Origin: Cyanobacteria bacterium SIG31
GTDB lineage: Bacteria; Cyanobacteriota; Vampirovibrionia; Gastranaerophilales; Gastranaerophilaceae
DNA: 64,000 nt
Reading direction: 5' to 3'
Assembly: GCA_015152465.1 (NCBI GenBank)
Contig: SUTX01000005.1
Location: 10,528 to 74,527 of the forward strand
The number at the start of each line of letters is the position of its first letter. Position 1 is the first letter of the stretch. Under the pieces are notes generated by a model. The model had not been told where the DNA came from, searched no databases, and worked only from the letters and a program-made list of their open reading frames with translations. Shown piece by piece: positions 16,530-24,879 of this stretch. Both the position numbers and the translations under genes were made by a program.

Positions 16530-19091
16530 CTATTCTGTTACTTCTGGAGAAAGAAGTGTTGTCTGCTCACCCTGAACTTCGGCTTCTTGTTCTACAGAAG
16601 CGCTGGTCGCAGTCTCGTAATCATCGTCTTCTTTGTCAGTATTAACTATCTTATTAACACTTACAACAGTGTCATTTTCAAGTAGATTTTGTGCCCTTAC
16701 ACCAGTAGCAGGTCTACCTTGACAAGAAATATCTCCAGCTTTGATTCTTGTAACAATACCACTAGATGTTACTAACATGATTTCGTCTTTTTCTTCAACG
16801 ATTGTTAGTGCAACCAATCTTGACATACTTGATTTGAATTTAGTTGCAATTAAACCTATTCCACCCCTGTTTTGAGAACGGAACTCACTTAGTTTTGTAC
16901 GTTTTCCAAAACCGTCAGATGTGACAACCAATAAATCTGCGTCATAGTTTCTAGGAACTATATCACAACCGATAATTGTATCTGCAGAACGTAATTTCAT
17001 TGAGTTTACGCCCCTCGCACTTCTACCTAATGGTCTTAAATCTTCAATTGGGAATCTAATAGCCATACCGCAAGAAGTACCAATGATTATTTCATCATTT
17101 GGATTAGCTAGTTTAACCCAATTTAATCTGTCACCATCTTCAAGAGAAATTGCAATAATACCACTTCTTCTTATATTTGCAAAGTTATCTAGTTCAATTC
17201 TCTTAATGTAACCTTTTTGAGTTAACATAATTAAATTTAAACTATGGGAGAATGTGCTTACTGGTACAACCGCAGTTATTTTTTCGCCTTGTTCAATTGG
17301 AAGAACATTAACAATTGGTAAGCCTTTTGCTTGTCTACCACCTTCAGGGAAGTCATATACATTTAAGCTATATACGATACCTTTAGATGAGAAGAATAGT
17401 ACTTTATCATGCATCATTGCTGTAAAGAAGTGTTGAATATCATCATCATCCTTAGTTTTAATACCAGCTTTGCCTCTTGTTGCACGGTTTTGACGCTCAA
17501 ATGTGTCTAAAGAAATTCTCTTCAAGTAGCCTTGATGTGTTATGAACACAGCCATTGGAGTATTTGGAGTTAAATCTTCGATTGTAACTTCACCTTGTTC
17601 TGGTAAAATTTGAGTTTTTCTGTCATCTCCGTATTTTTCTTTATCTTCAATTAATTCAGTTTTAATGATATCAAGAACTTTTTGTCTGTCAGCAAGTATT
17701 CCTTCATATTCAGAAATCTTTTTCAATAACTCGTCATATTCATTCTTAATCTTATCTTGTTCTAAGCCTGTCAATCTTCTTAATTGCATTTCTAAGATAG
17801 CGTTTGCTTGATCTACATCTAATCCAAACTTGCTCATTAAGCCAACTCTTGCATCATCAGTTGTCTTTGACTTTTTGATTAGTTCAATTACTTCATCTAG
17901 AGAACCTAATGCAATTAGCAAACCTGCCAGAATATGAGCTCTTATTTTAGCTTTTTTCAAGAAATAAATTGTTCTTCTTGTTACAATTTCAACTCTGTGC
18001 TCAACGAACTCATTAAGAACTTCATATAGATTCAATAAGCGAGGTTGTTTACCACAAAGTGTAACCATATTGACCCCGAATGTTGTAGCAAGTTGAGTGT
18101 ATTTGAATAAGTTATTTTTAACAACTTCTGGCTTTGCATCACGTTTAAGTTCAATAACGATTCTCATACCGTCTCTATCAGATTCATCTCGCAAGTCCGA
18201 AATGCCGTTGATTCTTTGTTCTTTTACTAAATCAGCAATTTTTTCAATTAACTGAGCTTTATTAACTTGGTATGGTAGCTCTGTTACAATGATTGCAGTT
18301 CTAGATTGTCTTCCATTACCACCAGGTATTTCTTCAATAGTTGCTACTGCAGACATTTTTATAGAACCACGACCTGTTTCATATGCTTGTTTAATATCAT
18401 TTAAGCCTATAATTGTAGCTGCTGTTGGGAAATCAGGGCCTTTTATATGTTCCATTAATTCTGCAATTGTTATTTGTGGATTGTCGATTAAAGCAATTGT
18501 TCCGTCAACGATTTCTGATAGGTTATGTGGTGGAATGTTTGTTGCCATACCAACCGCAATACCAGAAACTCCATTAAGTAAAAGCATTGGTAACCTGACT
18601 GGTAGAACTGATGGTTCTTCTAATGATCCATCAAAGTTTGGAACAAAATCAACAGTTTCACAGTCTATATCAGCAAGCATTGAAGTTGTAATTTTGTGCA
18701 TGCGAGCTTCTGTATAACGCATTGCAGCTGCACCATCACCGTCCACAGAACCGAAGTTGCCATGACCGTCAACTACTAAATAACGAGTGTTGAAATCTTG
18801 TGCTAAACGAACTAGCGCTTCGTATACAGAGCTGTCGCCGTGTGGGTGATATTTACCAAGAACTTCACCAACAATACGAGCACATTTCTTAAATGGTTTA
18901 TCTGGAGTCATGCCCAATTCGTTCATCGCATATAAAATTCTTCTGTGAACAGGCTTTAAACCATCTCTTACATCAGGTAACGCACGTCCTACAATTACTG
19001 ACATCGCATAATCGATGTATGAACGTTTCATTTCTTCTCTTATATTGACAGGTACAATTTTACCGTCTGAAAACATATTTTGTTGACTCAA
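16530..19091 (-). CDS. gyrA: DNA gyrase subunit A
   Basis: [26 protein letters not shown], GyrA-box QNRATRG, beta-pinwheel repeats. Confidence 0.97.
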
Positions 19092-19515
19092 AATCTTTCT
19101 CCTCTATCCCAAATTTCCCATATTATCATTTTATCACAAAAAAACTCTGTGTAAAGCATTATTTAATACTTTTAGCCTATTTTGGGTGTTATTATATTAA
19201 AAATTTTATATATGTAGTATATATGCTTATAATGCTTATTATATACAGTTTTAAGGAGTGTAACAATTTTTTTTTAAAAGGCAATTTTTATGAAAAAAAA
19301 TACTTTATATAGATGTAAGGACAAAGGGAATTTATAAAAAACAAATAAATAATTATTAGACCTGATGAAGTTTATCAAAGGGTTTGGGAAAAAGCTTTCT
19401 TTTTATACTCTCTCTTAATATCCTCGTGTTTATTTAATGTTTGCTCGATGCTCTATCAAGCAAACTTTTTTTTGTGCTACGCACATAGATAATTGTCTCG
19501 CTTGGAAAATTTTGT

Positions 19516-21291
19516 TTATGAAGCTGAGGCTCTCTGTTTTTCAAGTTTTTCTAACTTCTTTTCAAGATTCTCAATGCGTTTTTCTAAATCATCAATTTTC
19601 TTTTGTTTTTGCTCTAATAAATCAAATTTGTTACTAAGTTCTTTTACAGCATTTACTAACGCATAGAACATATCTTCCATTCTTATGCGCAAAAATCCGT
19701 CATCTCCCTTGAATACGGCTTTAGGGAAGATTTTTTCTAAATCCTGTGCCATTACGCCTACATGAGGTGTTTTGTCAGGGTCTTTTTTGAACGTGTAATT
19801 GAATACTTCAAGCTTTTTGATTTCTTCAAGCCCACCAGTAAAAGCTTTGCCAACATTCTTTAATCGTTTATCTGAAAGATAAATATTTGATGAAGAGGGA
19901 TGTGACTCACCATAGTACCAGTCAATTAGTCGACCACCTTGATTACTATCTCTTTGAATTTTCATTAACATGCTTCCGTCATCGCCATATTCATCAGCCA
20001 TAATGATAACCCCACCTTTTGTACCGTTTGGGTCTGCTTTTATTGCAGCTTGGGTCCTTGATAAAACACAAGTTTTATCAACAACCAATCTTCCTGGAAT
20101 ATAAACTGTTGAATTAATATCTCCCAAAACAATTTGGTTATCTAATGTTGCTTTGGCATTATATCCAATTGCTGTTGAAAATTGTCCGCTTGCTTTAGCA
20201 GCATAACCAACAGCTGTTGTATAAATATTTGTAGCTTCTGCGTTTCTATCTTCGGATTCAGAAGAACCAATAGCAATGCCCCTTTGACCTGTTGCTTTAG
20301 CATGTCTACCTATTGCTATACCACCTAATGCACCATTAGCTTTAGCATTGTATCCAATTGATATGCTGTCTTGGGTTTGAGACATACTACTATTACCAAT
20401 AGCAATAGAGTTTTCACCGATTGCTTGAGTATTGTAACCTATAGCAGAAGAATATTTGCCTGTTGCTTTTGTAACTGTACTAGCATCGTTAACTCCTATT
20501 GCAATTGTATGAGTATTAGTTATTGTTTGAGCATTTCGACCAATAGCAATGGACGTATCGGTATCTGTGGTTGCACCACTACCAATTGCAATTGAGTCGG
20601 CACCTTTTGCTGTGGCTCTATAATTACGGTTAGCCCCTAAGGCAATAGCGCCAGATTTAGTTGCACTGGAGTAGCTACCAATAGATGTAGCACATACTGC
20701 GTCTGCAGTTGCATTACTTCCAATGGCTACAGAATCGTTACCAGTTTTTGTATTATGACCTACACTGACCGCTGTGGCAGAAGTCGTATTTGCCGTTGAG
20801 CCGATAACAACTGAATTGTGGACAAAATTTTGGTTATCACCTGTAATTTTTGCATTAGCACCGATTATAACGTTGTGCGATGTGTTACCAATATTACTAT
20901 GTTTGGTTAAATAGATGCTATTATTATTTGCTGCAAGAGATATAAGGTTATTGTCTCCGTCTCCGAATGTGATTTGAGGCTTGCCGGCAGCTGTTTTTAT
21001 AAACATAGCAGGTTTGTTTACATCGCTTCCATTTGTAGATTTTAGTGGAAATTTAAGAGCTCCAATAGTTGCTGTTTGGTTTTTACCAGCCAAATTGAAT
21101 GCAATATCATTGGTTGCATCTGATGTATAAACCCAAGGGGTTGTGTTTGCCGCTTGGTTTTCTAACATTTTTCGGTTAATCATTGGTGCTGTAGCAGCTG
21201 CAATAATTGCAGTAATCAACAACACAATCATCATTTCCATTAAAGAAAAACCTTTTAAAATGTTCTTGTTACGAACGCTTTTAAGAAGCAT
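19516..21291 (-). CDS. Type IV prepilin-like protein fused to YadA-like head repeats and C-terminal peptidase S74 chaperone domain
   Basis: KG|FSLME class III signal, about 17 (S/A)IAIG-type 14-aa repeats, SDKRLK...GVMAQDL...AVKEL, terminal coiled coil. Confidence 0.85.
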   Translation of the reverse strand: MLLKSVRNKNILKGFSLMEMMIVLLITAIIAAATAPMINRKMLENQAANTTPWVYTSDATNDIAFNLAGKNQTATIGALKFPLKSTNGSDVNKPAMFIKTAAGKPQITFGDGDNNLISLAANNNSIYLTKHSNIGNTSHNVIIGANAKITGDNQNFVHNSVVIGSTANTTSATAVSVGHNTKTGNDSVAIGSNATADAVCATSIGSYSSATKSGAIALGANRNYRATAKGADSIAIGSGATTDTDTSIAIGRNAQTITNTHTIAIGVNDASTVTKATGKYSSAIGYNTQAIGENSIAIGNSSMSQTQDSISIGYNAKANGALGGIAIGRHAKATGQRGIAIGSSESEDRNAEATNIYTTAVGYAAKASGQFSTAIGYNAKATLDNQIVLGDINSTVYIPGRLVVDKTCVLSRTQAAIKADPNGTKGGVIIMADEYGDDGSMLMKIQRDSNQGGRLIDWYYGESHPSSSNIYLSDKRLKNVGKAFTGGLEEIKKLEVFNYTFKKDPDKTPHVGVMAQDLEKIFPKAVFKGDDGFLRIRMEDMFYALVNAVKELSNKFDLLEQKQKKIDDLEKRIENLEKKLEKLEKQRASAS

Positions 21292-21313
21292 TTAGCCCTC
21301 CTTGTTTGATATC

Positions 21314-22696
21314 TTAACCTCTTTCGCAAATAGTTCTAGCTACATATACACCTGAGGCAGAAGCTTGAATTAGACCTCTTGTTACTCCTGCACCATCACC
21401 AATTGTGAATAGGTTTTTTACACCTTCGGTTTCAAGTTCGTTTGTTAATTTTACCCTTGCAGAGTAAAATTTAACTTCAATACCGTAAAGAAGTGTATAT
21501 CTAGATGCTGTACCTGGAGCAATTTTATCTAATGCAAAAAGCATTTCAATTATTGATTTCATTTGTCTATAAGGAATTACAAGGCTTAAATCACCAGGTG
21601 TTGCACAAGTAAGAGTTGGTTCTATTATACTAGATTTGATTCTATCTGGAGTAGATCTTCTTCCGTCTAATAAATCCCCAAATCTTTGCACTAGAATTCC
21701 GCCAGCAAGCATGTTAGCCAAGCTAGCTATGTGTTGACCATAAGCAATAGGTTCTTTAAACGGTTCTGTAAACTTCTTACTTACTAGTAAAGCGAAGTTT
21801 GTGTTTTTTGTTTTAATATTTGCATAGCTGTGACCGTTTACTGTTGCAATACCGTTATAGTTTTCTTGTACAACTTCTCCGTTAGGATTCATACAGAAAG
21901 TTCTAACTTCGTCTCCGAAAGTTGGAGAATGATATACTAATTTTGATTCGTATAATTTATCAGTTAATGGTGCAAATACTGGGGCTGGTAATTCAACTCT
22001 TACACCAACATCTACAGCGTTATTAACCATACCAATTTTGTTTTTAGCAAATTCTTGAGTAAGCCAATCAGCACCTTCTCTTCCTGGTGCAATAATTGTA
22101 TATTCAGCTTTGATAGTTTCTCCATTATCAAGAACAATACCTTTTACTTGTTCGCATTCAACAATTAAGCTTTGGGCTGCAACATTATTTAAAATTGTAA
22201 TCTTGTCATCTAAATAATCTTGCATGTGTTTTAGGACGTCTAAACTACGCTCAGTACCTAAATGTCTGACCGGAGAGTGAACGAGTTTTAGCTCAGCAAG
22301 AGCTGCTTGTCTTTCAATCTCTCTAAAAATTTCCATATTGGTGCCAAAAACTTCATCTGTCGCGCCGTGTTCAAGATATAAGTCATCAGCATATTTAATA
22401 TATTCTTCAACTTTTTCTCTCGACATATAGTCAACTAAGTGACCGCCAACATCTGGAGTTAGCGTAAGCTTTCCGTCGGAGAATGCACCAGCTCCTCCCC
22501 AACCGCAGAGCAGTCCACAACGTTTGCAATTTACACATTTAGGAGAGCCATTTCTAATAGGACAAACTCTCTTTTCTATCTTTTGGCCTTTTTCAATAAG
22601 TATTACTTTCCATTCTGGTCTTAGTTTAACTATTTCTAGAGCAGTAAAAATTCCAGCTGGTCCTGCTCCAATTATGGCAACATTATACATCCCCAT
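21314..22696 (-). CDS. NAD(P)/FAD-dependent oxidoreductase (uncharacterised family)
   Basis: IIGAGPAG, Cys cluster CPI...CVNCKRC, GGAGAFSDGKL, GDGAGVTRG. Confidence 0.85.
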   Translation of the reverse strand: MGMYNVAIIGAGPAGIFTALEIVKLRPEWKVILIEKGQKIEKRVCPIRNGSPKCVNCKRCGLLCGWGGAGAFSDGKLTLTPDVGGHLVDYMSREKVEEYIKYADDLYLEHGATDEVFGTNMEIFREIERQAALAELKLVHSPVRHLGTERSLDVLKHMQDYLDDKITILNNVAAQSLIVECEQVKGIVLDNGETIKAEYTIIAPGREGADWLTQEFAKNKIGMVNNAVDVGVRVELPAPVFAPLTDKLYESKLVYHSPTFGDEVRTFCMNPNGEVVQENYNGIATVNGHSYANIKTKNTNFALLVSKKFTEPFKEPIAYGQHIASLANMLAGGILVQRFGDLLDGRRSTPDRIKSSIIEPTLTCATPGDLSLVIPYRQMKSIIEMLFALDKIAPGTASRYTLLYGIEVKFYSARVKLTNELETEGVKNLFTIGDGAGVTRGLIQASASGVYVARTICERG

Positions 22697-22847
22697 TAAT
22701 CCCTTACTCCTAATTCACTATTACTTATTTATGTTAGCTTAAACAAAAGGGTAAATCAATAATTTAATACTTATTATTAAGTATTATTCATGATTAATTC
22801 TAAAGAATGATTTTTCCTAAAAACCTTAAAATATCGTAATATACAGC

Positions 22848-22876
22848 TTGCGAGGAATTGTTTTTTGTGCTAAAAT
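22848..22876 (+). promoter_or_regulatory. Putative sigma70 promoter for small ORF 22980
   Basis: TTGCGA-17 nt-TAAAAT with extended -10 TG. Confidence 0.55.
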
Positions 22877-22979
22877 AAGCTCATAAATTATAGTGTAGTT
22901 TAACTGTTTATCTCACCAGAAAAAGGTGTTTTCATATATTTACTAATTTAATGTTACTAATAATATAGGAGGAAACGTT

Positions 22980-23138
22980 ATGACCGTTGCCACTGTTACA
23001 GAAACTAAAAAAACAGTTAAATCTACTTTTAATGATGAGTTTGAAACTTATTTAAAGAAACAACAAGTAAAAACCACATTTAATGGTTCTGAATTAGAGT
23101 CATTTTCTTGGTATAAAAAAGCTTTAGGGCTTTTATAA
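22980..23138 (+). CDS. 52-aa small protein not in the ORF track
   Basis: RBS aggagg, ATG 22980, TAA 23136-23138, own promoter and terminator. Confidence 0.7.
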   Translation: MTVATVTETKKTVKSTFNDEFETYLKKQQVKTTFNGSELESFSWYKKALGLL

Positions 23139-23150
23139 GGTTTAATCAAC

Positions 23151-23189
23151 AAAAAGGCGGGACTTCTTTTTAGAAGTCCCGCCTTTTTT
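23151..23189 (+). terminator. Intrinsic terminator
   Basis: aaaaaggcgggactt ... aagtcccgcctttttt. Confidence 0.85.
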
Positions 23190-23268
23190 ATTATGTGATG
23201 TTTTGATAGAAATGTAAATTTTTAATAAAATGTTGTCTTTTTTGATTATAAAAGATTAAATTTTTACC

Positions 23269-23419
23269 GACAGGCATATTTATTTGATTAAACACGTTCG
23301 GTTTTGTAGCTCATTAATTAACCTTCTCCCTTGATGGGAGAAGGTGGTGCCTTGCACCGGATAAGGGTGGTCTTAATGTTTAGCCCCTCACTATCGTTAA
23401 TCAAACAAATATGCCTGTC
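23269..23419. repeat. 151-bp element bounded by 23-bp inverted repeats, containing a REP-like hairpin
   Basis: gacaggcatatttatttgattaa (23269-23291) vs ttaatcaaacaaatatgcctgtc (23397-23419), one mismatch; internal ccttctccc-ttgat-gggagaagg. Confidence 0.75.
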
Positions 23420-23624
23420 TCATAATAATAAAGTTAAGAAATAATGTTTTTGAGACGATAGCGAAGGGCAATACATATAGCTAGTTTAATTCTGCTACGC
23501 AAGCGTAGCGCACATCTCATTTTAGGAGATGTGCTTTTAAATATACGCCAAAACTGAGCGTGTTCTCAAAAATATTATTTCTTAATCCAATTAAATAGAG
23601 TTAGAATAAAAAGACAATATTTTA

Positions 23625-24350
23625 TTAATATTGTGCTTTTTTGTTACCAATTTCATTACCCGGTATCATTAGCGCAAATGGTACCAATCTGGAAATATAA
23701 TGTACTACTTGCGATCTTGGGGCAACGTATTTAGCTGATGCCAGTACGTCATCAAAGTGAGGTGCTAAATCTGTTGCTTTAACATCTCTTTCTTCTTTTT
23801 TATTTTTAAATAAGACATTTGAAAGTTTATTCATAGCAAAGTTTGCTAAATAAATTCCGCCGACTATAGCGCCCAAACAAGCAATGGCTCTTGTTGCTTG
23901 TCCTTTAGCAGTTTTTTCTGAAATTTTTATCAGATCACAAAGCTTATTAGTTCCTGCTACTGTTGCAATTGGAATCGTGATATTTCCTATTTGCATAACT
24001 GCTTCTCTGCGTTTAGCTTTTCTATTTTGAGGATTCTTGTCAATAATATAACCTCCGGCCAATCCTCCCAAGCAACTTCCAGCACCTAGTGCTACGATTT
24101 CTTTAAATAAGAAGTCAGCATTTTCAAAATATTTTCTAGCGTTTTTAAAATTAAGTTTATAACCTTGAGCTTTCGTAAGTGCTGCTAAGCTACTGACAAC
24201 ACCTATTACTGTTGTGCCGGCTACGATAAGTTTGTCTTTGGTTGTATAATCGCTTTTCCAAAAGCTTTCTCCGCCATGCTTAAAAGCAGGCTCTTTTTTT
24301 GAGACTGTGTTGTTTGATACTGTGTCATATTTTGCTAGCGTGATGTTCAT
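23625..24350 (-). CDS. Hypothetical multi-pass membrane protein with PAFK leader
   Basis: 241-aa ORF with Gly/Ala-rich hydrophobic segments. Confidence 0.75.
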   Translation of the reverse strand: MNITLAKYDTVSNNTVSKKEPAFKHGGESFWKSDYTTKDKLIVAGTTVIGVVSSLAALTKAQGYKLNFKNARKYFENADFLFKEIVALGAGSCLGGLAGGYIIDKNPQNRKAKRREAVMQIGNITIPIATVAGTNKLCDLIKISEKTAKGQATRAIACLGAIVGGIYLANFAMNKLSNVLFKNKKEERDVKATDLAPHFDDVLASAKYVAPRSQVVHYISRLVPFALMIPGNEIGNKKAQY

Positions 24351-24396
24351 TGTGACCTTCTTAATAGTCTAAAACACCTAAAAACATTTTTTGCTA

Positions 24397-24879
24397 TTAA
24401 ATAGTTGGGGAATAAAATTTTGAAATTTCTTCAAAATATCTTTCTAAAGCTTTATATCCGTTATGTATTTCATCTGTAACTGAAGCATATCTGCTTGCTA
24501 CAATGTATTTAAGCTCTTTGCAACGAATTTGTAGTAACATATCAGCATCTTTTCTTAAGAGTTCATTTGATGCAGTAGACCATTTTTTTAAATATGTCAA
24601 TTCGTCATTAATTTGTTTTATTGTTGAGTATTCTAAAGTGTTAAAATCATATTTTTGTAAAAGCTGTCTTTCTGTATTAGAAATACGGCTTTGAACTGCT
24701 TGGAATTTATAAATACGTTTGATAATAACGTAGTTATCAGCAATACGCCTGTGAGAATAAGGAACAGAACTCTTTGCCAATAAAGCAGATGTGGACAACG
24801 CCGTAAAAGCATCTTCCTCACTAGAAAAAGCACTTTGAACAGGATAAACAGTTTCAATCTTCTTACTATTACTAATCAC
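24397..24879 (-). CDS. Hypothetical protein
   Basis: 160-aa ORF, RBS-like ggggaag upstream. Confidence 0.55.
   Translation of the reverse strand: MISNSKKIETVYPVQSAFSSEEDAFTALSTSALLAKSSVPYSHRRIADNYVIIKRIYKFQAVQSRISNTERQLLQKYDFNTLEYSTIKQINDELTYLKKWSTASNELLRKDADMLLQIRCKELKYIVASRYASVTDEIHNGYKALERYFEEISKFYSPTI

What the first reader, a model, noticed from the sequence alone, without database searches (positions are those of the whole stretch)
19516..21291. Type IV pilin fused to a YadA-like head and a phage-type self-cleaving S74 chaperone
Seen in sequence: class III prepilin signal (K13-G14|F15-S-L-M-E19 plus hydrophobic helix), about 17 14-aa (S/A)IAIG repeats ending in NQIVLG, then S473-D-K-R-L-K, GVMAQDL, AVKEL and a terminal coiled coil. 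Established knowledge: these repeats form trimeric beta-roll heads in trimeric autotransporter adhesins, and S74 domains are intramolecular chaperones of phage tailspikes/fibres that drive trimer folding and are released by Ser/Lys autocleavage at S|D. There is no beta-barrel translocator and no phage or pilus genes flank it. Inference: a trimeric adhesin or fibre is displayed by the type IV pilus/T2SS machinery instead of by autotransport. Pilins normally polymerise as monomers, so this implies an unusual tip or triple-anchor assembly.
Basis: partly seen in the sequence, partly recalled or inferred. Interest (0 to 1): 0.88.

Follow-up and report, generated by a model that had tools for sequence, protein, structure and literature searches.

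The report
Pilin-anchored self-cleaving trimeric fibre gene
A gut relative of cyanobacteria (Gastranaerophilales) encodes a surface-fibre protein that begins like a type IV pilus subunit, continues as a YadA-type adhesin rod and ends with the self-removing folding cap of phage tail fibres; it is a real member of a large family that was listed in a 2021 survey but has never been studied.

Summary
Pfam finds all three parts above threshold: N_methyl (21.8 bits, barely), YadA_head (99 bits) and Peptidase_S74 (49 bits). The mature N-terminus keeps the pilin hallmarks F1, E5 and P22. S473 and K478 form the S74 catalytic pair. AlphaFold gives a confident beta-roll that matches trimeric autotransporter heads.

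The genome (1.68 Mb, Gastranaerophilaceae) has PilD, PilB, PilC, PilT and a secretin. It also has nine or ten other prepilin-type genes and one paralog of this gene.

The family is large: 595 representatives at 50% identity. It is multi-copy and almost confined to this one bacterial family. It has conserved ends and a hypervariable middle and tip.

Most likely it is a homotrimeric adhesin that folds in the periplasm, cuts itself and is carried at a type IV pilus tip, as CofB and TcpB trimers are.

No pilin globular domain is detectable and there is no beta-barrel anchor. It is therefore neither a classical pilin nor an autotransporter. Its polarity is that of a phage fibre.

The architecture is already listed in Raynaud et al. 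2021, Dataset S1. Display, cleavage and trimerisation are untested.

The parts
19516..21291 (-). Whole gene, 591 aa plus stop: prepilin signal, N-domain, YadA-like beta-roll, variable tip, S74 chaperone, coiled coil
   Evidence: ORF list and translation; Pfam and NCBIfam
21297..21303 (-). Ribosome-binding site AAGGAGG, 5 nt before the ATG
   Evidence: Read from the sequence
21250..21291 (-). Leader peptide, residues 1-14 (basic, ends K13-G14); predicted PilD cut G14|F15
   Evidence: N_methyl and TIGR02532 matches over 13-34; G or A at -1 in relatives
21151..21249 (-). Alpha1 helix of the mature protein, residues 15-47: F1, E5, P22 in mature numbering, Met-rich FSLMEMM signature
   Evidence: F15/S16/L17/M18/E19/P36 invariant in 47 sequences. 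AF2 helix 17-47. Best PDB profile matches are type IV pilins, aligned in register
20887..21150 (-). Family-specific beta-rich N-domain, residues 48-135 (W53, N66, G77 conserved); fold unassigned
   Evidence: Alignments. AF2 strands at pLDDT 50-85. No PDB fold match. No profile similarity to the head repeats
20092..20886 (-). YadA-like head: 17-18 repeats of 14 residues, residues 136-400, ending NQIVLG...TVYIPG
   Evidence: YadA_head 99.3 bits. Repeat spacing. AF2 pLDDT > 90. Foldseek matches BpaC 2.8e-8 and YadA 2.3e-5
19876..20091 (-). Hypervariable distal tip, residues 401-472, exposed after the cut
   Evidence: Mean pairwise identity 0.18, the lowest of all regions; AF2 pLDDT < 50 as a monomer
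19657..19875 (-). Peptidase_S74 intramolecular chaperone, residues 473-545. Ser473 is at 19873-19875 and Lys478 at 19858-19860. Predicted cut L472|S473
   Evidence: Pfam 49 bits. PDB sequence matches 8jov tail fibre and MyRF ICA. Region identity 0.78. S473/K478 conserved in at least 90% of 90 sequences. Cut position from PMC8326128
19519..19656 (-). C-terminal heptad coiled coil, residues 546-591, part of the released fragment
   Evidence: AF2 helix 538-590. Coiled-coil-type Pfam matches. The MyRF C-terminal triple coiled coil drives trimerisation (PMC8326128)
21314..22696 (-). Upstream FAD-dependent oxidoreductase gene; it ends 22 bp before the fibre gene and is probably co-transcribed with it
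   Evidence: Pfam; spacing from the ORF list
22887..22916 (-). Best sigma-70-like promoter candidate for the oxidoreductase-fibre pair (GTGAGA-18-TATAAT)
   Evidence: Consensus scan only; not evidence of function

Best explanation
The gene encodes a modular 'tip pilin'. It is a homotrimeric, phage-fibre-like adhesin whose only pilin part is the class III signal peptide and the alpha1-N helix.

Proposed steps (all inferred unless marked):
1. The prepilin is inserted into the inner membrane with its N-terminus inside and its C-terminus outside.
2. PilD removes the 14-residue leader at G14|F15 and methylates F15. The motif and the enzyme gene are shown; the reaction is not.
3. In the periplasm the C-terminal S74 domain and coiled coil bring three chains together. 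They nucleate folding of the tip, the YadA-like beta-roll and the N-domain from the C-terminus towards the N-terminus.
4. The Ser473/Lys478 pair then cuts at L472|S473. This releases a 119-aa cap and exposes the hypervariable tip.
5. The mature trimer (residues 15-472) is held by three alpha1-N helices. It primes or caps a type IV filament built by PilB/PilC and leaves through the PilQ secretin, as the CofB and TcpB homotrimers do in type IVb pili.
6. The variable head and tip bind ligands in the gut, such as host or microbial surfaces. Several paralogs per genome give a repertoire of tips.
For: **Domains and motifs**
- All three domains pass Pfam cut-offs. The paralog shows the same three domains.
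- F1, E5 and P22 of the mature protein are invariant in 47 relatives. They are in the same register as the genome's other prepilins and as solved type IV pilins.
- The S473/K478 dyad and the S74 core are nearly invariant.
- The beta-roll is modelled at pLDDT > 90 and matches the heads of the obligate trimers BpaC, YadA, EibD, CbpF and BoaA.

**Machinery in the genome**
- PilD, PilB (T2SSE + MshEN), PilC (T2SSF), a secretin and PilT-like ATPases are all present.

**Family pattern**
- The N-module is coupled to the rest. Of 90 proteins found with the N-terminal profile alone, 84 carry S74 and 85 carry YadA_head.
- Region identities are alpha1 0.75, S74 0.78, head 0.36 and tip 0.18.
- The two paralogs in this genome share 94% (N-terminal end) and 91% (S74 end) nucleotide identity, but no alignable head DNA. 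Conserved ends with a variable middle is the pattern of receptor-binding fibres.

**Precedents**
- Trimeric tip pilins and modular pilins are described in PMC8179133.
- S74 cleavage needs trimerisation and a C-terminal coiled coil (PMC8326128).
Against: - There is no experimental or expression evidence of any kind.
- No pilin globular domain was detected in residues 48-135.
- N_methyl passes its cut-off by only 0.6 bits.
- The gene is not next to pilus genes, and no conserved neighbour exists in 80 related loci.
- To my knowledge, all characterised S74 domains fold in a cytoplasm, not a periplasm.
- Only monomers could be modelled. The S74 and tip regions are low-confidence in those models.
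- The major pilin of this organism is not identified.
Confidence: 0.55

Rival explanations
1. It is an envelope fibre that is not part of a pilus. The prepilin signal serves only for export and as an inner-membrane anchor, with or without PilD processing. The trimer then sits in the periplasm, or reaches the surface as a very short pseudopilus-like stub.
For: No pilin globular domain was found. The genes are dispersed, away from the pilQ-pilB-pilC cluster on another contig. The distinctive Met-rich FSLMEMM helix differs from the FTLAEVL helices of the genome's other prepilins.
Against: F1, E5 and P22 are invariant; these residues matter for processing and filament packing, not for mere anchoring. 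A fibre of 17-18 beta-roll turns is, by my estimate, too short to cross a diderm envelope alone. A hypervariable tip makes little sense if it is hidden in the periplasm.
Confidence: 0.2
2. It is a released product. The fibre is pushed out through the secretin by a pseudopilus, or shed, and acts free in the medium. It could be a soluble lectin or adhesin, or a bacteriocin- or tailocin-like receptor-binding protein derived from a phage.
For: Phage tail-fibre families match the S74 end and part of the head (phrog_1980 over residues 236-580, phrog_5668 over 59-567). NCBI names relatives 'tail fiber domain-containing protein'.
Against: There are no phage or tailocin genes in the window or in 80 related loci. 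Only distant, partial matches exist among 50,697 phage records. The hydrophobic alpha1-N helix would remain attached after PilD cleavage. No lytic or toxic domain is present.
Confidence: 0.1
3. The S74 domain is a working peptidase module presented by the pilus and acting on other substrates. This is the reading implied in the 2021 survey.
For: PMC8179133 lists IPR012902-IPR030392 under 'peptidase activity'.
Against: In the characterised S74 domains reviewed here the dyad cuts the protein's own chain, at the serine itself, inside the trimer (PMC8326128). Here the serine sits exactly at the junction with the fibre, and the domain is C-terminal with a coiled coil, as in phage fibres.
Confidence: 0.03

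Closest known systems
Modular type IV pilins (S. sanguinis PilB and PilC; survey of Raynaud et al. 2021, PNAS, PMC8179133), including the listed architectures IPR012902-IPR030392 and IPR012902-IPR008640-IPR030392
   Same: An N-terminal class III signal and alpha1-N are joined to a non-pilus functional module, with proposed presentation at the pilus tip. This exact domain order is in their Dataset S1 (29 + 4 + 3 proteins).
   Different: PilB and PilC have a complete small pilin module and are monomers. Here no pilin globular domain is detectable, the module is an obligate trimer, and it carries a self-removing chaperone. The survey read S74 as 'peptidase activity' and did not analyse these proteins.
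CofB (ETEC CFA/III) and TcpB (V. cholerae TCP), type IVb minor pilins
   Same: They are homotrimeric pilin-like proteins placed at the pilus tip. They initiate assembly and carry the binding function (as summarised in PMC8179133).
   Different: CofB and TcpB have a pilin domain followed by beta-repeat and beta-sandwich domains, and no S74 or YadA repeats. They are encoded within their pilus operons. No sequence relationship was found here.
Phage tailspikes and tail fibres with a C-terminal intramolecular chaperone (endosialidase endoNF of K1F, T5 L-shaped fibre, GA-1 gp12; Peptidase_S74)
   Same: The polarity is the same: N-terminal attachment part, variable trimeric beta-structure, and a C-terminal S74 domain with a Ser-x4-Lys dyad and a coiled coil. 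The ends are conserved and the receptor-binding middle is variable.
   Different: The virion-attachment domain is replaced by a prepilin signal and alpha1-N. The gene is chromosomal, in a housekeeping context, with no phage genes nearby. Folding would have to occur outside the cytoplasm.
Trimeric autotransporter adhesins (YadA, BpaC, AtaA, EibD, CbpF)
   Same: The head is a 14-residue-repeat left-handed beta-roll, supported by sequence and by predicted structure.
   Different: There is no YadA_anchor beta-barrel and no neck, stalk or Sec signal. The polarity relative to the anchor is reversed: the anchor is N-terminal here and C-terminal in autotransporters.
MyRF / MrfA membrane-bound transcription factors (ICA domain)
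   Same: They share the S74-type Ser/Lys self-cleavage, which is activated only in the trimer, and a C-terminal triple coiled coil (one search match to 7dc3; PMC8326128).
   Different: They are eukaryotic and act in the cytosol and at the ER. Cleavage releases a transcription factor, not a fibre.

Membership tests
Type IV pilin / class III signal peptide protein | Short basic leader ending in Gly (rarely Ala), then F/M at +1 and Glu at +5 | tested here: met
   K13-G14|F15-S-L-M-E19. N_methyl scores 21.8 bits (cut-off 21.2) and TIGR02532 23.9 (cut-off 16.3). F15 and E19 are invariant in 47 relatives. Three relatives have Ala at -1.
Type IV pilin / class III signal peptide protein | About 20 hydrophobic residues forming alpha1-N, with Pro22 as in type IVa pilins | tested here: met
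   AF2 helix 17-47. P36 (mature P22) is invariant. The profile aligns in register with solved PilA, MshA, PAK and gonococcal pilins.
Type IV pilin / class III signal peptide protein | Globular pilin domain (alpha1-C packed on an antiparallel beta-sheet) | tested here: inconclusive
   The model of residues 1-140 (mean pLDDT 70) has no PDB fold match at E < 1. The helix ends at about residue 47. A monomer model of a probable trimer may mislead.
Type IV pilin / class III signal peptide protein | Prepilin peptidase and filament assembly machinery in the same genome | tested here: met
   PilD on C30 (A24_N_bact 2e-31 + Peptidase_A24); PilB, PilC and a secretin clustered on C31; PilT-like ATPases on C7 and C5.
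Type IV pilin / class III signal peptide protein | Leader cleavage, N-methylation and incorporation into a filament | not testable with these tools
   Needs experiment.
Trimeric autotransporter adhesin (type Vc) | YadA-like head: 14-residue repeats forming a left-handed beta-roll | tested here: met
   YadA_head 1.2e-28. 17-18 repeats. AF2 pLDDT > 90 and Foldseek matches to BpaC, YadA, EibD, CbpF and BoaA.
Trimeric autotransporter adhesin (type Vc) | C-terminal YadA_anchor 12-stranded beta-barrel translocator | tested here: not met
   No YadA_anchor match even at E <= 1. The C-terminus is S74 plus a coiled coil. It is therefore not a member of this family.
Peptidase S74 intramolecular chaperone (CIMCD/ICA) | Profile match above the curated threshold, at the C-terminus after a trimeric beta-structure | tested here: met
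   Peptidase_S74 scores 49 bits (cut-off 22) over residues 473-526. PDB sequence matches to the tail fibre 8jov and MyRF 7dc3. PHROG tail-fibre families match.
Peptidase S74 intramolecular chaperone (CIMCD/ICA) | Ser-x4-Lys catalytic dyad at the domain start | tested here: met
   S473-D-K-R-L-K478. S473 and K478 are conserved in at least 90% of 90 relatives. They correspond to MyRF S587/K592 and endoNF S911/K916 (PMC8326128).
Peptidase S74 intramolecular chaperone (CIMCD/ICA) | Trimer-dependent autocleavage and release of the domain | not testable with these tools
   Only monomer prediction was available. The S74 region is low-confidence in the monomer model.
Modular pilins (Raynaud et al. 2021) | N-terminal IPR012902 motif plus a domain not specific to pilus biology | tested here: met
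   The same architecture is listed in their Dataset S1.

The most novel reading that the evidence does not exclude
Gut Gastranaerophilaceae would use homotrimeric fibres resembling phage receptor-binding proteins as interchangeable pilus tips. These fibres have three bare alpha1-N helices and no pilin globular domain. Each trimer would nucleate and cap a type IV filament in place of the usual minor-pilin/PilY1 tip complex. It would be folded by an S74 chaperone working in the periplasm. Each genome would hold a repertoire of 2 to 10 or more tips that diversify by exchanging the middle part between conserved ends.
Probability: 0.25. Interest if true: 0.8.

Novelty: new variant of a known kind. 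Interest (0 to 1): 0.5.

Why it matters
If the model holds, it shows a second, independent route to a trimeric pilus tip. It would also show that the phage way of building receptor-binding fibres (a C-terminal self-cleaving chaperone) has been taken over by a cellular surface organelle and works outside the cytoplasm.

It would give a handle on how uncultured, non-photosynthetic relatives of cyanobacteria attach in animal guts. The family is multi-copy and fast-evolving in its binding parts, so it may be one of their main host- or microbe-contact factors.

It also corrects a database reading: 'peptidase activity' should read 'assembly chaperone'.

The value is tempered. The architecture is already catalogued, this gene is one of thousands, and nothing is shown experimentally.

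Tried and rejected
**Ideas tested and rejected**
- Prophage or tailocin origin of the locus: rejected. The neighbours are gyrA, an FAD oxidoreductase, ilvC, metK and leuS. There is no conserved neighbour in 80 related loci. Only weak, partial matches exist among 50,697 phage records.
- Trimeric autotransporter: rejected because there is no anchor barrel.
- Residues 48-135 as a pilin globular domain: no support from fold search.
- Residues 48-135 as degenerate YadA repeats: hhalign probability 1.3%.
  - The gene follows the oxidoreductase by 22 bp.
  - The nearest inverted repeats (23269-23585) lie beyond a small plus-strand ORF and a strong terminator.
  - They are copies of a dispersed repeat.
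  - No recombinase domain was found next to them.
  - Inversion could not be tested with reads.

**Searches that gave no usable result**
- Rfam on 19000-24500: nothing near the gathering scores.
- PilY1 search: uninformative, because the control genomes did not ring.
- Literature search for 'Peptidase_S74' with 'pilin': no paper.
- A look-alike search in this scan's index by sequence: empty.
Full report
**1. The observation**

The interval 19516-21291 is open only on the minus strand and encodes 591 aa. An AAGGAGG ribosome-binding site lies 5 nt upstream of the ATG.

Pfam gives three matches above their curated cut-offs:

| Domain | Score / E-value | Residues |
|---|---|---|
| YadA_head | 99.3 bits, E = 1.2e-28 | head region (best stretch 276-302) |
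| Peptidase_S74 | 49 bits, E = 7.3e-13 | 473-526 |
| N_methyl | 21.8 bits (cut-off 21.2) | 13-34 |

- NCBIfam TIGR02532 (IV_pilin_GFxxxE) scores 23.9 against a cut-off of 16.3. Several trimeric autotransporter models match the repeat region well below their whole-protein thresholds.
- A simple motif count finds 17-18 units of about 14 residues (xIAIG...) between residues 140 and 400, ending in NQIVLG...TVYIPG.
- No beta-barrel anchor family appears even at E <= 1.

**2. The surroundings**

- The neighbours are housekeeping genes: gyrA (16530-19091, minus strand), an FAD-dependent oxidoreductase that ends 22 bp upstream (21314-22696, minus strand), ilvC, metK, leuS and oxaloacetate decarboxylase subunits. 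There are no phage or pilus genes.
- The gene is probably co-transcribed with the oxidoreductase. The best promoter-like site is at 22916-22887 (consensus only).

**3. The organism and its pilus machinery**

- The window lies in a 1.68 Mb assembly of 31 contigs with 32.7% G+C.
- Close relatives of the protein come from Candidatus Gastranaerophilales / Melainabacteria gut MAGs.
- The genome encodes a bifunctional-type prepilin peptidase (A24_N_bact 2e-31 + Peptidase_A24).
- It has a compact cluster of secretin, PilB (T2SSE + MshEN) and PilC (T2SSF).
- It has PilT-like ATPases.
- It has ten further ORFs with a prepilin-type N-terminus, 190-340 aa long. Nine of them pass N_methyl, and none has another known domain.

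**4. The family**

- A word-indexed search found more than 1,200 relatives, nearly all with the same three Pfam domains. NCBI names the few named ones 'tail fiber domain-containing protein'.
- In one-genome-per-species GTDB representatives, 515 stretches encode a relative. The 80 best are all from Gastranaerophilales / Melainabacteria / 'Vampirovibrio' or unnamed gut MAGs of human, yak, deer, sheep, horse and chicken.
- In a sample of 151 genomes of the class, 28 of 33 genomes of the window's own family have the gene. Only one weak match lies outside that family.
- This genome has two copies.
- A profile of the first 140 residues alone finds 595 representatives (50% identity clusters) at E <= 1e-10 among 1.84 billion proteins.
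- Of 90 of these that are at least about 400 aa long, 84 carry S74, 85 carry YadA_head and 69 carry N_methyl. The N-module and the fibre/chaperone are therefore a fixed combination, not an occasional fusion.
- The 80 closest loci share no conserved neighbour. Fifteen have another prepilin ORF within 10 kb.
- Some more distant genomes hold tandem triads (G143:C2, G087:C10, G150:C3).

**5. Conservation pattern**

- F15, S16, L17, M18, E19, L24, I26, A32, A33, A35, P36, W53 and G77 are invariant in 47 N-termini.
- In mature numbering these include F1, E5 and P22, the hallmarks of type IVa pilins. They are in the same register as the genome's other prepilins and as solved pilins (PilA, MshA, geopilin, PAK, gonococcal pilin, PpdD), which are the best PDB profile matches.
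- The S74 block is nearly invariant, including S473 and K478.

Mean pairwise identity by region:

| Region | Mean pairwise identity |
|---|---|
| alpha1 | 0.75 |
| N-domain | 0.36 |
| head | 0.36 (repeat number is also variable) |
| tip, residues 401-472 | 0.18 |
| S74 | 0.78 |
| coiled coil | 0.50 |

The two paralogs of this genome are almost identical over residues 12-135, with three substitutions (94% at the nucleotide level). They are identical over residues 482-555 (91% at the nucleotide level). Their heads are only about 35-40% identical, with no alignable DNA. Conserved attachment and chaperone ends with a variable binding middle is the pattern of phage receptor-binding proteins.

**6. 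Structure**

- AlphaFold2, as a monomer with a 37-sequence alignment, gives the following:
  - a helix over residues 17-47;
  - strands over 53-129 (pLDDT 50-80);
  - a beta-roll over 140-390 at pLDDT > 90;
  - low confidence over 414-514;
  - a long helix over 538-590.
- Foldseek against the PDB returns heads of trimeric autotransporters: BpaC 2.8e-8, YadA 2.3e-5, then EibD, CbpF and BoaA.
- By sequence, the S74 end matches a phage tail fibre (8jov) and the MyRF ICA domain (7dc3). PHROG tail-fibre families match the S74 end and, in two cases, much of the head.
- A separate model of residues 1-140 (pLDDT 70) has no significant PDB neighbour. The N-domain profile does not resemble the head repeats.
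- A pilin globular domain is therefore not shown. What is pilin-like is the signal and alpha1-N.

**7. Mechanism (inference)**

- Prepilins have their N-terminus in the cytoplasm and the rest outside. The fibre must therefore fold in the periplasm.
- S74 domains trimerise, template the upstream trimeric beta-structure, and then cut their own chain N-terminal to the serine. In MyRF the cut is P586|S587 with the dyad S587/K592, equivalent to endoNF S911/K916. Cleavage needs the trimer, and the C-terminal triple coiled coil drives trimerisation (PMC8326128).
- Here that predicts a cut at L472|S473 and release of 119 aa, not S|D and about 118 aa.
- The mature trimer would expose the most variable segment (401-472) at its far end and keep three alpha1-N helices at its near end.
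- Homotrimeric pilin-like proteins at a pilus tip have a precedent in CofB and TcpB (PMC8179133).
- Relative to autotransporters the polarity is reversed, with the anchor at the N-terminus. Relative to phage fibres it is the same. The design is a phage-type fibre whose virion adaptor has been replaced by a pilin helix.
- I put 0.55 on tip display by the type IV pilus machinery, 0.2 on a pilus-independent envelope fibre, 0.1 on a released product and 0.03 on a true peptidase module.

**8. What is known**

- Raynaud et al. 2021 surveyed 'modular pilins' in InterPro.
- Their Dataset S1 lists IPR012902-IPR030392 (29 proteins), IPR012902-IPR008640-IPR030392 (4) and the same with two IPR008640 entries (3).
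- Their text reads the S74 module as 'peptidase activity' and goes no further.
- No paper in the library joins Peptidase_S74 with pilin.
- Papers on Gastranaerophilales mention only the presence of pil genes.
- Earlier notes of this scan describe the same family in other genomes with the same conclusion. I treated these as leads, not as support.

**9. Verdict**

This gene is one ordinary member of a large, catalogued but unstudied family.
- It is a variant of modular pilins. It is an obligate trimer, it cleaves itself, and it has no detectable pilin head domain. It is not a new kind of system.

Noticed in passing
window 23269-23419 and 23434-23585 (outer inverted repeat 23210-23242 / 23608-23640): Two adjacent elements of about 151 bp, each bounded by terminal inverted repeats of 22-23 bp (95-96% complementary). 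The pair recurs together on contig C13 (96-97% identity) and on C23 (81-91%). It therefore looks like a dispersed, MITE-like composite repeat rather than a local regulatory structure. There is no Rfam match. This is the element of the first-stage note e1-5271438.
   Followed up: partly
window about 22978-23137 (+) and 23151-23188: A small plus-strand ORF of about 52 aa (MTVATVTETKK...KKALGLL) with its own GGAGG ribosome-binding site. It is followed by a strong bidirectional terminator-like hairpin with a 17-bp stem. It lies in the 928-bp gap upstream of the oxidoreductase-fibre gene pair.
   Followed up: no
own genome, contig C7:28216-30090 and C7:30153-34496 (L094): The paralogous fibre gene (624 aa, same three domains) is followed 63 bp downstream by a 1447-aa TamB-like protein (Pfam TamB, 1e-7). 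A PilT-like ATPase lies about 6.6 kb further on. The proximity to an outer-membrane assembly factor may be coincidence.
   Followed up: no
own genome, contigs C1, C3, C9 (two), C14, C15, C19, C21, C25, C28: Ten further ORFs with a prepilin-type N-terminus, 190-340 aa long. Nine pass N_methyl, and none has any other Pfam domain. Several share a C-terminal motif of the form D(V/I)NG..(K)PN..G.D.F.F....G...P.G. One (C21) has a long Thr/Asn/Asp-rich low-complexity insert. No obvious short major pilin was identified.
   Followed up: partly
related genomes G143:C2:26127-30692, G087:C10:53836-58455, G150:C3:195315-200647: In some genera of the same bacterial family, three S74-ending family members lie within about 5 kb of each other as tandem or divergent triads. 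The 80 closest relatives of this gene are all singletons.
   Followed up: no
homologs P0060, P0069, P0100 (alignment A1): A subgroup has Ala instead of Gly at the -1 position of the prepilin cleavage site (DA|FSLMEMM). It also carries a ZapB-like coiled-coil annotation at the C-terminus.
   Followed up: no
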